Source: the human T2T-CHM13v2.0 reference genome, Homo sapiens
Strand: one strand, 5' to 3'
DNA length: 64,000 nt
Assembly: GCF_009914755.1 (NCBI RefSeq)
Contig: NC_060932.1
The position numbers and the translations under genes were made by a program. The notes beneath the pieces were generated by a model. The model did not search any database. It was not told where the DNA came from and saw nothing but the letters and a program-made list of their open reading frames with translations. Every line of letters starts with the position of its first letter. The first letter of the stretch is position 1. Positions 16,884-20,862 of the stretch are shown one piece after another.

Positions 16884-16949
16884 GGTGGTGGGGCTGGAGT
16901 CCCACAGGAGCTCTTCAGCTGGTAGCCCTGGAAAAACTGGACGGAGGCG

Positions 16950-17800
16950 GGGTCAGCCCGGGCTCACCTGCGAGTGGGACTAGAGGCTCCCCAGCCCTGC
17001 GCATGCGGGGGGTTCCTGAGGGAGAGACCCACGGGCACGACTCTGGGAAGAGCCAGAGCCGCAGGCCCAGCTCCGAGGGCAGCCTGGGCCCGAGCGAGAG
17101 CCTGGCCGGCGGTCAGCGGCCTGATGCCCCCATGCCCAGCATCGCGCTTCTCCGGGCCCTGGACTGGGCCGAAACCCAGGCAGCGGAGCAGGCACGGGAG
17201 GTGGGGACGCCGCTGGACCCTGGAGCCCTCGGGCGGGGTCCCTCAGCACGAAAGAGGCACGGGAGTGCGGGGAGGGGGTTTGGGGCGAGCTGGCCGGGGG
17301 ACCCCACTTCCCGCTTTGCTCGACCTTCGACCCAAGCCTGGCGGGCCCCGGGACAGGACGGAGCCTGAGCACCGACGGGGCGACCCGAGGCGGGGACGCG
17401 TGAGGAGCGGCCCGGGAGGCAGCGGGGAAGGGGCCGCGGAGGGGAAGCCCGGGAGGCAGCGGGGAAGGGCCGCGGAGGGGAGGCCGCCCGGCGCAGGCCC
17501 CACCTGGCGCTCGGCTCCGGCTCGGTCGCTCGCGGTCGGCTCTGCCTGCGCTCCCGGCGGCCCTGCCCGCACCAGCCTCGCCTCGGGGAGGAGCCTACAG
17601 GGCCCGCCCCCCGCGCCACTGGTCCCGGCACTCGCGGTTACATCAGGCCGGGCCCGCCCCCCGCGCCTCCGTCCTCGCCCTGCGCTTCCCCGGGCCACGG
17701 GCGCAGGATCAAGGGCACCTTGGCTCTGCGGCCCTCGGGTCTCCGGCGCCGGGCCTGGGCTCGCCTAGCGTGGGCGCCCCAGGATCCCACCTCCAGGTGT
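16950..17800 (-). promoter_or_regulatory. OPLAH: OPLAH CpG-island promoter and non-coding exon 1 (donor CAG|GTGGGG; exon ends at 17504)
   Basis: CpG-rich with GC boxes (ccgccc) near 17604 and 17654; 37-bp direct repeat at 17411/17448 in intron 1. Confidence 0.8.
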
Positions 17801-18008
17801 CCTGGGCAAGGGGAGCTGGCAGCCCAGGCCACAACAGGGCTTCCCACTGGCGGACGTCCTTCCCCGTGGAGGGGGCGTTGAAGGACAGAGAGGAGAGGGG
17901 AGGCCCTGCGGCCTTCTCTACCAGCCCCAGCTCCCGGCCCCGTGGGCCTCTCCTGTGCGGTATCTCTGGCCTTCTTCACCGGGTCTCCCTCATCTCCAGC
18001 CCTCCTTG

Positions 18009-19057
18009 TGCCAGAGGCGTGTGAACCAGAGCAACTCCATCTTGAATAGGAGCTGGCTAAAAAGAGGCCGAAACCTACTGGGCTGCACTCCCGGACGATT
18101 AATGCATTCTAAGTCACAGGATGAGATAGGAGGTCAGCACAACACACAGGTCATAAAAACCTGTATCTCCCAGCCCGGCCAACACGGTTGAAACCCCCTC
18201 GCTACTAAAAATACAAAAATTAGTCAGGCATGTGGCACGCGCCTGTAATCTCAGCTACCGGGAGGCTGAGGCAGGAGAATCGCTGGAACCCGGGAGGCGG
18301 AGGCTGCAGTGAGCAGAGATCGTGTCACTGCACTCCAGCCCAGGCGACAGAGCGAGACTCCGTCTCAAAAAAAAGAAAAAAAAAAACCCTGTATCTGATA
18401 AAACAGGTTGCAGTAAAGAAGTTGGCCAAACCTACCAAAACCATCGTCCTACACTCCCCGCAGCGCCATGGCGGTTTACCAGGGCCACAGCAACGGCACG
18501 AAGTTACCCTATATGGTCTAGAAAGGGGAGGCATTAATAATCCACCCCTCGTTTAGCATATCATCAGAAATAACCATAAAAATGGGCAACCGGCCTGGCA
18601 CGGTGGCTCACGCCTGTAATCCCAGCACTTTGGGAGACCGAGGCGTGTGGATCATGAGGTCAAGAGATCAAGACCATCCTGGCCAACATGGTAAAATCTG
18701 TCTCTACTAAAAATACAAAAATTAGCTGGGCGTGGTGGCACGCACTTGTAGTCCCAGCTACTTGGGAGGCTGAGGCAGGAGAATCGCTTGAACCCAGGAG
18801 GCGGAGCTTGCAGTGAGATGAGATCGCACCACTGCACTCCAGCCTGGCGACAGAGTGAGACTCCGTCTCAAAAAAAAAAAAAAAAAAATGGGCAACCAGC
18901 AGCCCTCGGGGTGCTCTGTCTATGGGGTAACCATTCTTTATTCCTCTACTTTCTTAATAAACGTGCTTTCACTTTAGGCACTCGCCCTGAATTCTTTCTT
19001 TCAAGAAATCCAAGAACCCTCTCTTGGGGTCTGGATTGGGACCCCTTTCCTGTAACA
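18009..19057 (+). mobile_element. MER41A-like ERV1 solo LTR interrupted by two Alus (about 18170-18388 and 18592-18887)
   Basis: Begins tgccagaggcgtgtgaaccagagcaactccatcttgaatagg and ends gacccctttcctgtaaca; Alu TSDs aaacctgtatct and aaaaatgggcaacc. Confidence 0.85.
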
Positions 19058-20550
19058 TTTGTGCCAAGGGCAGTGGACTCCAGCTCCCCATAGACAGGGA
19101 TGGGGCCCAGGATCAGGCACTTAGGAACCCCTCCCCATGGATGGGCTGCTGCTCATGTCCAGATGACTGCCCTGTAAGTGGCACGTGCCTGCTGTGATGC
19201 CACCCCCAGACCCCATGCCCATGGACCTCCTAGTGCCTTCCCATCCTGAGGCCCAGCTGAGGCCCCAGATGATCATGCCACGCCCACATGCAGGAGCCCC
19301 ACCTGCCTGCTCTGAGCAGTCCGTGGGAAGCAGCTCTGGTCAGCAACCCCACTTCAGCCGAGGACCTTCCCCACCAGCCATACAGCCTCTGCCTGGCCAG
19401 CCCACACTCCTGCGGGACTGCCCTGCCTTCTGGTTTCCACCCATCCCCAGCACAGCCTCTTGGTCCTGCCTGTCAGCCCAGGATCTATCAGGAGAGATTC
19501 CCACACCCCACCCACCCACACCCCCACCATCTGCTGCCCTGTACGCACTCAGGCTGCCCGCCAGGCCTGTGCTGTAGACCCCAAACTCTCTCACTGCCCT
19601 CCACCATCCCCAGCCACCCCCTCGCCTCTCTGTTCACTCCAGGGGCCTGTGCTATCCACTCACAGACGAAACCTCTAAGGGCCTGTCCCCACGCTCCCTA
19701 GCGGCATCCCACTGCCGTGCACCTCCAGGTGTCCACCTCCCCCACCTCCGCCTGCCTCCTGGGCTCTCCTGACCCCACTCCACTGCGCGTCTCGGGGGCA
19801 GACCAACAAAAGCCAACCCCCACCCACCCAGGCTCAGGCCTCCCTTGGCTGCCCCACCTGCCTCCTACCCCACTGGGCCTTTATCTCTGTCCCTCCATGT
19901 TGCTGGGTCCCAGCTTCCCCTTGGCAATGCCACGCAGCCCCTCCACAGCAACCAGAGGCAGCTCCAGGCCTGCGGGATGGCCCGGCCCCTACTCTCTAGT
20001 GGCGCCTCTGACTGCATGGCCAGACACGTCCCAAAACCAAGCCCCAGGCCACCTACCAGTGGCCCACTCCAGCAGCGGCTCCCCCACCCAGCGAGCTGCC
20101 CCAGCCCCATTCTCATCCCCACACGCAATCTGCCAGAAGTCCTGTTACTTTCACCTTCAGAACACAGAGCTGCTACTTCTCACACCTCCACCCCGGCCAG
20201 GCTTCCATCACGTTCCCCCAGGGATATGGCTGTCCCCACCACCAGAGAGCGCAGGGCTGGGAGGACAGAGTCTGCCGTTGCAGTGACTCTGACAGCTTCA
20301 GGCACAGACAACTTGCACCCACCTCAGGGCCTGGCACAGGCTGTTCCCTGGGCCTGGAAAGCCGCGCCCCAGCCTGGCAGCTCCCTCGCCCGCTCAGGCT
20401 CTGCTCAGAGGTCACTTTCCCAGACCTGGCACCTTCTCCCCGCCGCACATCCTGGAAGAGCCCCAGGGCCCTGGCTTTGCTCCAGAGGCACCGCAGCACC
20501 CAGCGGGTTTGCCCAACTCCACAGAGTCTTGGGGCCCCGGTACGGCTCAC

Positions 20551-20785
20551 CTCTCTCAGCATTCTTGAATTTGATCGTTCTCCGCCTGGGTAGCCAGGGA
20601 CTGGCAGCCACCTCAGCCAGGAACCCGGAGCTGCAGAAGCCCAGGCTGCTGCCGCGGTTCCTGAGCACCAGCTTCAGCTCCTGGTTCTCCTGGATGAGCT
20701 GCACCAGCCGCCGCAGCTCTTCGTTCTCCTGTGCCAGCCGCTGGATCTCCTGCCGCAGGCCCTCATAGCTGCTGAGGAGGGACAT
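20551..20785 (-). CDS. Speriolin-N-like coiled-coil exon (78 aa, phase-1 donor); candidate alternative first coding exon of OPLAH
   Basis: MSLLSSYEGLRQEIQRLAQENEELRRLVQLIQENQELK resembles the recalled SPATC1 N-terminus; donor GAG|GTGAGC at 20551/20550; in frame with OPLAH exon 2. Confidence 0.7.
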
Positions 20786-20854
20786 GCCTGGCAGCCAGCG
20801 GCGGCAGCTGGCGGGGGCCAGCAGGCCGGCCAGGGACAGCAGACCCTGCTATTG

Positions 20855-20862
20855 TGAGGTCA
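20855..20862. promoter_or_regulatory. CRE-like element TGAGGTCA (TGACCTCA on minus) 70 nt upstream of the speriolin-like ATG
   Basis: attgTGAGGTCAgc; same CRE variant as in the testis ACE promoter. Confidence 0.4.

What the first reader, a model, noticed from the sequence alone, without database searches (positions are those of the whole stretch)
16884..20862. Duplicated speriolin exon 1 can splice in frame onto OPLAH: predicted speriolin-coiled-coil/5-oxoprolinase chimera
Seen in sequence: a minus-strand exon (ATG 20785, donor GAG|GTGAGC at 20551) is 235 nt, phase 1, and encodes MSLLSSYEGLRQEIQRLAQENEELRRLVQLIQENQELK... OPLAH exon 2 has two acceptors, giving exon starts at 16936 and 16927, 53 and 44 nt before the normal ATG. 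235+53=288 and 235+44=279 are both multiples of 3, and the intervening 'UTR' reads with no stop (VFP)[16 protein letters not shown]. This predicts a 1384- or 1381-aa OPLAH with a 96- or 93-aa extension. Recalled knowledge: SPATC1 begins MSLLTNYEGLRHQIERLVRENEELKKLVRLIRENHELK (26/38 identical by hand), and speriolin is a spermatid centrosomal protein with an N-terminal coiled coil. Inference: an inverted duplication of the SPATC1 promoter and first exon was captured by OPLAH. The result would be a testis isoform that could dock a glutathione-cycle enzyme at the sperm centriole or neck. Automated gene models may already contain this exon, but I know of no functional description.
Basis: partly seen in the sequence, partly recalled or inferred. 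Interest (0 to 1): 0.9.

Follow-up and report, generated by a model that had tools for sequence, protein, structure and literature searches.

The report
Speriolin-zipper alternative first exon of OPLAH
Upstream of the human 5-oxoprolinase gene lies an old, very well conserved copy of the first coding exon of the sperm-centriole protein speriolin, and it can be spliced in frame onto the enzyme to add a leucine-zipper head that nobody has yet studied.

Summary
The minus-strand exon 20785-20551 is 235 nt and phase 1. It joins in frame to both acceptors of OPLAH exon 2 (16936, 16927), giving open frames of 1384 and 1381 aa. It scores as Pfam Speriolin_N (60.3 bits, cut-off 27.9). It is the only speriolin-like piece at OPLAH; the human genome otherwise holds only SPATC1 and SPATC1L.

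It is not a recent or decaying copy. Residues 1-42 are identical to human in 18 of 34 related cluster representatives. Conservation stops at the ATG and at the donor. Fourteen named models from 12 placental species fuse it to OPLAH, 11 of them through the predicted leader. The copy lacks changes shared by marsupial and placental SPATC1, so the duplication probably predates therians.

Promoter homology to SPATC1 is not detectable. Expression, testis specificity and centriole docking could not be tested. Ten literature searches found no description. The exon is already in automated gene models. My verdict: a real, conserved alternative first coding exon, with an inferred function in zipper-mediated pairing or tethering.

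The parts
20551..20785 (-). Exon A: an alternative first coding exon of OPLAH with its ATG at 20785. It is 78 codons plus 1 base. Residues 3-31 form a four-heptad leucine zipper, about 43-62 are a speriolin-like Gly/Ser stretch, and 63-78 are a basic tail (RRRT.KFK) special to this copy.
   Evidence: sequence, frame; Speriolin_N, 60.3 bits; conservation in 34 representatives; heptads; hub table (RefSeq exon 20551-20785 of another OPLAH transcript).
20545..20550 (-). Splice donor GTGAGC after exon A.
   Evidence: In the unnamed read-through ORFs the residues just after R78 are mostly G-E or G-G, as expected if the G|GT donor is kept. Beyond that they no longer align.
16884..16936 (-). Leader of OPLAH exon 2. 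It is 5'UTR in the canonical mRNA and is read as an 18- or 15-residue linker in the long form. Tandem acceptors give exon starts at 16936 and 16927.
   Evidence: The same linker in frame is seen in 11 of 14 named mammalian models.
16713..16883 (-). Coding part of OPLAH exon 2, holding the canonical start ATG at 16883 and the start of the Hydant_A_N domain.
   Evidence: Hub table; (Hydant_A_N in 8 of 8 chimeric models scanned).
8176..16641 (-). The remaining 25 coding exons of OPLAH, shared by the canonical and long forms.
   Evidence: Hub table; (joined frames of 1288, 1384 and 1381 aa with one terminal stop).
17504..17543 (-). Canonical non-coding exon 1 and its CpG-island promoter. It lies inside the 3.6-kb intron of the long form and is skipped by it.
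   Evidence: Hub table; (17300-17900: GC 0.77, CpG o/e 0.76).
20786..20965 (-). Sequence just upstream of exon A, a possible alternative promoter or upstream acceptor region. It is not a CpG island. It holds TGACCTCA at 20855-20862 and a perfect DR1, AGGTCAGAGGTCA, at 20953-20965.
   Evidence: sequence; 20786-21300: GC 0.65, CpG o/e 0.27; DR1: 1 match, 0.03 expected; TGACCTCA: 17 matches in the window, so not telling alone; the stretch around TGACCTCA reads LTSQWQ in 5 upstream ORFs of other species, so it is conserved as DNA. The function is inferred only.
18260..18316 (-). Alu-derived stretch used as an extra in-frame exon between exon A and exon 2 in one gorilla model (isoform X5).
   Evidence: 19 of 19 residues identical in the human window, and many Alu look-alikes elsewhere in the window.

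Best explanation
Exon A (20785-20551, minus strand) is a real coding exon kept by selection. It arose from an old inverted duplication of the first coding exon of speriolin (SPATC1) and is the only part of that copy that survives. It serves as an alternative first coding exon of OPLAH. A transcript starting at or upstream of it skips the canonical CpG-island exon 1. It splices from the donor at 20551 to the tandem acceptors of exon 2 and reads the usual 5' leader as a linker. The product is a 5-oxoprolinase of 1384 or 1381 aa. Its new head has three pieces: a four-heptad parallel leucine zipper (d = L3, L10, L17, L24, I31; a = Y7, I14, N21, V28), a Gly/Ser-rich spacer, and a conserved basic motif (RRRT.KFK). 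About 50 residues that are probably flexible separate the zipper from the enzyme. Shown here: the exon, its frame, its homology, its deep conservation with sharp limits at the ATG and the donor, and the fusion models in 12 other species. Inferred: that the splice is used and the protein is made. Also inferred is the role of the zipper, which I take to be pairing (with itself, or with the identical a/d core of the SPATC1 zipper) so that the enzyme is tethered to a partner structure, most plausibly in male germ cells.
For: Sequence and frame.

Homology: Speriolin_N at 60.3 bits against a 27.9 cut-off. The only other matches in the human genome are SPATC1 and SPATC1L.

Same exon design as SPATC1: both exons begin at GGCATG and end in phase 1 on a G before GT.

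Constraint:
- 27 of 34 related cluster representatives keep M1 and an unbroken frame to residue 76-78.
- 18 of 34 are identical to human over residues 1-42, including goat, bat, murid rodents and apes.
- The unnamed read-through ORFs lose all similarity just before the ATG and just after the donor.
- Human exon A against human SPATC1 over 38 codons gives pN 0.15 against pS 0.68, with differences of 6/8/17 by codon position.

Fusion: 14 named representatives from 12 species carry Speriolin_N plus hydantoinase/oxoprolinase domains, and Pfam confirmed this in 8 of 8 scanned. Eleven of the 14 pass through the same leader in the same frame, using either the 16936-type (V[FL]PGLP) or the 16927-type (GLP) start. 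The gorilla X3 model is 1381 aa, the length predicted for human. Human RefSeq lists exons 20551-20785 and 16713-16927 among other OPLAH transcripts (hub table).

Age: marsupial SPATC1 already has the SPATC1-type zipper. SPATC1 forms a clade with 100/100 support on a long stem, and exon A lies outside it.

Context:
- OPLAH protein is listed in human and bull sperm proteomes.
- OPLAH is among 328 genes lower in germ-cell tumours than in normal testis.
- Speriolin and SPATC1L sit at the sperm neck or centriole.
- The N-terminal part of speriolin is described as its leucine zipper.
Against: No transcript, CAGE, ribosome or peptide evidence could be examined, so the splice and the protein rest on gene models. 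Many such models are built by programs that favour long open frames.

The human RefSeq exon starts exactly at the ATG, with no 5'UTR. That suggests the model is supported by protein similarity rather than by full-length cDNA.

None of the 14 unnamed short ORFs shows the spliced junction; all run on into the intron.

Three of the 14 named models join exon A elsewhere (chimpanzee, tree shrew, bison).

Some representatives are damaged or altered. The tree shrew has I instead of M1. P0029 looks frameshifted. P0033, P0034 and P0062 are partial or diverged.

Conservation was judged from proteins only. No orthologous DNA was available, so synonymous change among orthologues and codon periodicity were not measured.

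Species whose frame through the leader is broken would yield no model, so the 11 of 14 is a biased sample.

The sperm proteome and tumour data do not tell isoforms apart.
Confidence: 0.65

Rival explanations
1. The long isoform is real, but the zipper has nothing to do with sperm or speriolin. It simply strengthens or regulates the pairing of two 5-oxoprolinase chains, or controls stability or localisation, in ordinary tissues that use the upstream promoter.
For: The heptad core with Asn at a central 'a' position is the classic pattern of a parallel two-chain zipper. That Asn favours dimers, and that 5-oxoprolinase is a dimer, are recalled and were not tested here. A perfect DR1 nuclear-receptor site 170 nt upstream would suit liver or kidney regulation as well as testis regulation. 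The copy lacks the C-terminal region said to bind Cdc20.
Against: Simple self-pairing does not need every surface position to stay fixed, yet residues 1-42 are identical from apes to goat, bat and murids. The SPATC1 zipper is equally frozen from human to marsupials. That points to a shared, demanding partner. All nine a/d core residues are the same in the two zippers.
Confidence: 0.3
2. Exon A is a conserved coding exon, but its main product is not an OPLAH fusion. It belongs to a separate short transcript, spliced to an unannotated exon or ending in the intron, that encodes a small zipper protein. The fusion models are then by-products of gene prediction.
For: The human model has no 5'UTR (hub table). 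Three of 14 named models join exon A to other places, and bison is named 'speriolin-like, partial'. No spliced junction appears among the unnamed ORFs.
Against: The read-through tail after the donor is not conserved at all, so a protein ending in the intron is unlikely. No other speriolin-like piece lies nearby. Exon 2 of OPLAH is the next annotated acceptor on this strand. Several different annotation sources reach the same join: NCBI X-isoform models and separately submitted annotations of Molossus, Erethizon, Apodemus and Camelus (that these come from different pipelines is my inference from their names).
Confidence: 0.15
3. The stretch is conserved for a non-coding reason, such as an enhancer, promoter or RNA element of OPLAH or a neighbour. 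The open frame is then a leftover.
For: Only protein-level conservation was seen. No orthologous DNA was available to show synonymous change.
Against: Conservation begins at the ATG and ends at the GT donor. The frame is unbroken in 27 of 34 representatives, and the one internal gap (Fukomys) is a whole number of codons. Differences from SPATC1 pile up at third codon positions (6/8/17). The heptad core is kept.
Confidence: 0.05

Closest known systems
SPATC1 (speriolin), first coding exon with the N-terminal leucine zipper
   Same: Same start (GGCATG), same phase-1 donor, and 55% identical over 58 residues. All nine a/d core residues of the zipper are identical, and both hit positions 1 to about 60 of Pfam Speriolin_N. 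Both zippers are almost invariant across mammals.
   Different: Only this one exon was copied or kept. The rest of Speriolin_N (71-228) and Speriolin_C are absent. Exon A is 21 nt longer and ends in its own basic motif. It keeps eight residues shared with SPATC1L that all SPATC1 sequences have lost. It is followed by an enzyme, not by the speriolin body.
Predicted '5-oxoprolinase isoform X' proteins of other mammals (such as gorilla X3 at 1381 aa, goat X3, Mastomys X2, Fukomys X2) and the human RefSeq model that holds exon 20551-20785
   Same: The same exon, the same join and the same domain order, Speriolin_N followed by Hydant_A_N, Hydantoinase_A, Hydant_A_C and Hydantoinase_B (hub table).
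   Different: These are database models with no stated function. None of the ten paper searches found a description of them.
Sperm-specific metabolic isozymes with an added N-terminal tethering segment (GAPDHS, spermatogenic hexokinase 1). This comparison is recalled and was not tested here.
   Same: A housekeeping-type enzyme gains an extra N-terminal piece from an alternative 5' end, and the piece is thought to fix the enzyme to a sperm structure. This is the way I propose the long OPLAH works.
   Different: Those are separate genes or known testis promoters with shown localisation. Here the added piece is a borrowed zipper from a centriole protein, and neither testis use nor localisation has been shown.
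SPATC1L (speriolin-like)
   Same: It carries a related N-terminal zipper. Exon A shares E13, Q15, R25, Q35, V40, L41, R42 and N43 with it rather than with SPATC1.
   Different: It starts differently, without MSLL..YEGL. The human copy is much more diverged. It carries Speriolin_C.

Membership tests
Pfam Speriolin_N (PF15058) | Score above the curated gathering cut-off | tested here: met
   60.3 bits against 27.9, E 3.6e-16. 57 bits in the whole-genome scan. 8 of 8 chimeric orthologues match.
Pfam Speriolin_N (PF15058) | Coverage of the whole 228-position domain | tested here: not met
   Only positions 1-57 match. The piece for positions 71-228 exists only at SPATC1 and SPATC1L.
Speriolin protein family (SPATC1/SPATC1L) | C-terminal Speriolin_C domain (PF15059), described in one paper as the Cdc20-binding region | tested here: not met
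   PF15059 matches over the cut-off lie only in SPATC1 and SPATC1L, with none near OPLAH. The domain roles are as stated in PMC6303261 (passages). So this is a protein with a speriolin zipper, not a speriolin.
Speriolin protein family (SPATC1/SPATC1L) | Localisation at the sperm centriole or neck | not testable with these tools
   Known for SPATC1 and SPATC1L (review PMC8471410, passages). There are no data for the long OPLAH.
5-oxoprolinase (OPLAH; hydantoinase A/B type) | Hydant_A_N, Hydantoinase_A, Hydant_A_C and Hydantoinase_B domains after the extension, in one open frame | tested here: met
   The human joined frame is 1384 or 1381 aa with one terminal stop. Hydant_A_N is found in 8 of 8 scanned chimeric orthologues and the other three domains in 7 of 8; the eighth is a 254-aa partial model.
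Parallel dimeric leucine zipper | At least four heptads with Leu/Ile at d, hydrophobic residues at a, and a buried polar Asn at a central a position | tested here: met
   d = L3, L10, L17, L24, I31 and a = Y7, I14, N21, V28. These are invariant or nearly so in 15 aligned sequences.
Testis-type alternative-promoter isoform | Transcription start used in male germ cells, with the junction seen in RNA | not testable with these tools
   No expression data were on hand. Only indirect context exists: the upstream region is not a CpG island, OPLAH is present in sperm proteomes, and it is lower in germ-cell tumours than in normal testis.

The most novel reading that the evidence does not exclude
A pre-therian copy of the speriolin zipper survives only as a second 5' end of OPLAH. 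It gives mammalian spermatids a 5-oxoprolinase that pairs with SPATC1 through an identical zipper core and is thereby parked at the centriole or neck. The last ATP-driven step of the gamma-glutamyl (glutathione) cycle would then sit at a structure that must be protected or remodelled. The conserved RRRT site would put this tether under the control of a basophilic kinase such as PKA.
Probability: 0.25. Interest if true: 0.75.

Novelty: new member of a known kind. Interest (0 to 1): 0.6.

Why it matters
If the long form is made, a glutathione-cycle enzyme has for more than 100 million years carried a targeting or pairing module borrowed from a sperm-centriole protein. That would link redox and amino-acid metabolism to the sperm neck, a structure whose defects cause headless sperm and infertility.

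It would also be a clean example of exon duplication followed by capture by a neighbouring gene, in which the captured exon is more conserved than most of its parent.

In practice, the exon lies outside the canonical OPLAH model. Variants in it are therefore likely to be scored as non-coding in clinical and population data, and its peptides are missed by proteome searches that use only the canonical sequence.

The idea can be tested at once with existing testis RNA-seq, long reads and sperm proteomes.

Tried and rejected
Promoter duplication. blastn of 2.3 kb around exon A against 3.2 kb around the SPATC1 exon found only the 117-nt coding match plus an Alu. The idea is rejected as not detectable.

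A whole second speriolin gene or pseudogene at OPLAH. Whole-genome scans with Speriolin_N and Speriolin_C found no further piece there. Rejected.

A recent duplication. Rejected on synonymous saturation (pS 0.68), the tree and marsupial SPATC1.

TGACCTCA as a telling promoter motif. It occurs 17 times in the window, mostly in Alu-like repeats, so the motif alone means little.

Tandem repeats in the intron. None are relevant.

Solved structures by sequence. There was no match at E up to 1.

Structure prediction of the extended N-terminus (alignment A1) was asked for twice and was not available.

Prediction of pairing between the exon-A zipper and the SPATC1 zipper was asked for once and was not available. 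Pairing therefore rests on the heptad analysis alone.

Three papers on speriolin and SPATC1L were not held: Goto and Eddy 2004, Goto et al. 2010, and Kim et al. 2018. What I say about the original speriolin experiments comes from passages in later papers or from recall.

A Pfam-name hit for 'Speriolin_N' in a TNIP1::PDGFRB paper is a coiled-coil look-alike and is irrelevant. An OPLAH intron-retention report in breast cancer is unrelated.

Supplementary tables of the sperm proteome papers were not opened. They were searched against canonical entries and would not show the extension.
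Full report
**1. What is in the sequence**

On the minus strand an ATG at 20785 opens a frame that runs 235 nt to 20551, followed by GTGAGC. That is 78 codons plus one base. OPLAH exon 2 has two AG acceptors nine bases apart, each behind a pyrimidine tract. They give exon starts at 16936 and 16927.

Joining exon A to either start keeps the frame of the normal ATG at 16883, and the leader in between has no stop. With the hub's CDS coordinates the canonical protein is 1288 aa and the long forms are 1384 and 1381 aa. Each has a single stop at the end.

**2. What the exon is**

Its translation scores as Pfam Speriolin_N at E 3.6e-16 and 60.3 bits against a cut-off of 27.9. The match covers profile positions 1-57 of 228.

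A six-frame search of the window's own genome (T2T human) with the 78 residues found three places:
- the exon itself;
- the ATG exon of SPATC1, 52 kb away on the other strand (55% identity over residues 1-58, E 5.3e-11);
- one chance-level hit on another chromosome (E 7).

A genome scan with the Speriolin_N profile found five pieces: two in SPATC1, two in SPATC1L and this exon. A scan with Speriolin_C found matches over the cut-off only in SPATC1 and SPATC1L. So only the first coding exon of a speriolin-type gene is present at OPLAH.

At the DNA level the similarity to SPATC1 is 117 nt at 74% without gaps. It starts at GGCATG and ends at codon 38. The flanks share nothing but an Alu.

Both exons end in phase 1 on a G before GT. 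SPATC1 is 214 nt from its ATG and exon A is 235 nt.

**3. It is under strong selection as a coding exon**

A word-indexed search of 5.8 billion proteins, restricted to longer proteins, gave 28 hits among 199 candidates. A full HMMER pass over 1.84 billion cluster representatives gave 53 hits. Together they supply 34 representatives of the exon-A type.

Against human:
- 27 of 34 keep M1 and an unbroken frame to residue 76-78. The only internal gap, in Fukomys, is six whole codons.
- 18 of 34 are identical over residues 1-42, among them orang-utan, gorilla, goat, a bat and two murid rodents.
- The seven exceptions are described in paragraph 9.

The unnamed short ORFs come from contigs that are not spliced. 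They read on through the donor. In them, similarity is lost immediately before the ATG and immediately after the G|GT of the donor. Conservation limits that fall exactly on a start codon and a splice donor are what a coding exon gives.

Between the two human paralogues the first 38 codons differ at 6, 8 and 17 first, second and third positions. That gives pN 0.15 and pS 0.68, with synonymous sites saturated.

I could not get orthologous DNA, so codon-level tests among species remain to be done.

**4. It is old**

SPATC1 of five marsupial genera (Sarcophilus, Sminthopsis, Gracilinanus, Vombatus, Monodelphis) already has the SPATC1-type zipper.

Exon A lacks the SPATC1-specific residues. It shares eight positions (E13, Q15, R25, Q35, V40, L41, R42, N43) with SPATC1L-type sequences instead.

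In a tree of 31 rows and 48 columns, SPATC1 is one clade with 100/100 support on a stem of 0.58 changes per site. The exon-A rows sit outside it on near-zero branches. The tree has few columns and cannot resolve more than that.

The simplest reading is that the duplication came before the changes shared by marsupial and placental SPATC1, and so before the therian ancestor. All named carriers of exon A are boreoeutherian placentals. Whether marsupials keep it is open.

**5. The fusion in other species**

Fourteen named representatives from 12 species carry Speriolin_N together with hydantoinase/oxoprolinase domains. The species are chimpanzee, orang-utan, gorilla, tree shrew, porcupine, goat, bison, camel, a molossid bat, Apodemus, Mastomys and Fukomys. 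A Pfam scan confirmed the architecture in 8 of 8 that I aligned.

Eleven of the 14 go from exon A into the leader of exon 2 in the predicted frame. Some use a V[FL]PGLP start and some a GLP start. One gorilla model reaches the leader through an extra Alu-derived exon that maps to 18260-18316. The other three join elsewhere.

Gorilla isoform X3 has 1381 aa, the length I compute for human. Human RefSeq lists exons 20551-20785 and 16713-16927 among other OPLAH transcripts (hub table).

Two cautions apply. Gene predictors like long frames. And species with a broken leader frame would leave no model, so these counts are biased towards agreement.

The human exon begins exactly at the ATG, which suggests support from protein similarity rather than from a full-length cDNA. 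The orang-utan entry is a 254-aa partial 'OPLAH isoform 5'. From recall, such names in the long-read great-ape assemblies come from human transcript models projected onto the ape genome. If so, it would hint at a human transcript with this join. I could not check this.

**6. Anatomy of the added head**

Residues 3-31 form four heptads with L3, L10, L17, L24 and I31 at d and Y7, I14, N21 and V28 at a. All nine are the same in SPATC1. From recall, a single Asn at a central a position is the hallmark of a parallel two-chain zipper.

Residues 43-62 are a Gly/Ser-rich stretch still similar to SPATC1. Residues 63-78 are special to exon A and hold a basic motif. R68, T70 and F73 are invariant in 15 aligned sequences. 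The motif fits a basophilic-kinase site; this is an inference.

With the 18-residue leader, about 55 residues separate the zipper from the first enzyme domain, which starts near residue 106 in the orang-utan model.

The region upstream of exon A is not a CpG island (CpG o/e 0.27 at 65% GC). The canonical promoter is one (0.76 at 77% GC).

**7. How it most likely works**

I propose that an upstream start, used in a restricted set of cells, gives an mRNA that skips the canonical exon 1 and encodes 5-oxoprolinase with a zipper on a flexible tether.

The zipper pairs either with itself or with the SPATC1 zipper, whose core is identical. The fact that all surface positions of both zippers are frozen across mammals argues for a demanding common partner rather than mere self-pairing.

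Speriolin and SPATC1L lie at the sperm neck and centriole (review PMC8471410, passages). The N-terminal part of speriolin is called its leucine zipper and the C-terminal part its Cdc20-binding region (PMC6303261, passages).

OPLAH is listed in a human and a bull sperm proteome (PMC9161277 and PMC10629479, passages). It is among 328 genes lower in germ-cell tumours than in normal testis, beside PRM2, TNP1/2, ODF1 and LDHC (PMC8785138, section 13). None of these data tell isoforms apart.

My odds:
- exon A is a selected coding exon: above 0.9;
- it is spliced to OPLAH and translated: about 0.7;
- it tethers the enzyme in male germ cells through speriolin-type pairing: about 0.25-0.35.

**8. Comparison with what is known, and novelty**

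The closest sequence relative is the SPATC1 zipper exon. The thing is not a speriolin, because it fails the tests for the rest of Speriolin_N and for Speriolin_C.

As a way of working, it most resembles the sperm isozymes that carry an extra N-terminal tether (GAPDHS, spermatogenic hexokinase; recalled).

The fusion already exists as unnamed or 'isoform X' models in databases. Ten full-text searches found no paper that describes it:
- OPLAH with SPATC1;
- speriolin alone;
- OPLAH with testis and isoform;
- speriolin with leucine zipper;
- Oplah with spermatid;
- Speriolin_N or PF15058;
- OPLAH with alternative promoter;
- 5-oxoprolinase with testis;
- Oplah with spermatogenesis;
- OPLAH with sperm

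. The library lacks most subscription journals.

I file it as a new member of a known kind: an alternative first exon, gained by exon duplication, that adds a targeting or pairing module.

**9. Results that cut against the reading**

- No expression evidence of any kind was available.
- None of the 14 unnamed ORFs shows the spliced join.
- Seven of the 34 representatives are not intact:
  - the tree shrew has I for M1 and its model starts upstream;
  - the camel model replaces the first 15 residues;
  - bison leaves the frame after residue 69;
  - P0029 looks frameshifted;
  - P0033, P0034 and P0062 are partial or diverged.
  Some may be assembly or prediction faults and some may be real losses.
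Neither the helix nor any pairing has been modelled.

Noticed in passing
window 20953-20965 (minus strand): A perfect direct repeat of the nuclear-receptor half-site with one spacer base (AGGTCAGAGGTCA, a DR1) lies about 170 nt upstream of the exon-A ATG. It is the only one in the 64-kb window (0.03 expected).
   Followed up: partly
window 20855-20862 and about 20840-20870 (minus strand): The stretch around TGACCTCA, about 75 nt upstream of the ATG, is conserved as DNA in other mammals. It reads LTSQWQ in the upstream frame of five other representatives and LLTSQ*Q in human. The octamer itself occurs 17 times in the window, so only its conservation is of note.
   Followed up: partly
window 18260-18316 (minus strand): An Alu-derived stretch inside the long-form intron is used as an extra in-frame exon in one gorilla OPLAH model (isoform X5). 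The human sequence is identical over 19 residues.
   Followed up: partly
window 19300-20200: The intron just downstream of the exon-A donor is very G-rich on the transcribed strand (GC skew -0.36 to -0.46 on the plus strand), with many GGG runs and no tandem repeat. From recall, G runs after a donor can aid splice-site use.
   Followed up: no
window 20594-20596 (codon 64 of exon A): Human has Trp at residue 64 (SPWLPRRR) where chimpanzee, gorilla and orang-utan have Arg. Some unnamed, rodent-like sequences also have Trp. This may be a CpG change in the human line or a variant of this assembly.
   Followed up: no
L004:1501-1530 (SPATC1 second coding exon) compared with window 16919-16936: The second coding exon of SPATC1 starts, after the split codon, with VFLPP. 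The OPLAH leader read after exon A starts with VFPGLP, in the same phase. It is too short to call homology and is probably chance.
   Followed up: no
proteins P0010, P0029, P0033, P0034, P0062: A few exon-A relatives are altered: start codon replaced (tree shrew), frameshift-like stretches (P0029), and partial or diverged copies. These may be lineage-specific losses or assembly faults.
   Followed up: partly
window 16884-17543 (canonical 5'UTR): The canonical 5'UTR (exon 1 plus the leader, 93 nt) has no stop and no ATG in the frame of the OPLAH start codon.
   Followed up: no
L008 (chr21, SPATC1L first coding exon): The human SPATC1L zipper (..SENADLKKQVRLLKENQMLRRLLSQ..) is much more diverged than the SPATC1L-type sequences of other vertebrates in the representative search, and far more than either SPATC1 or exon A.
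   Followed up: no
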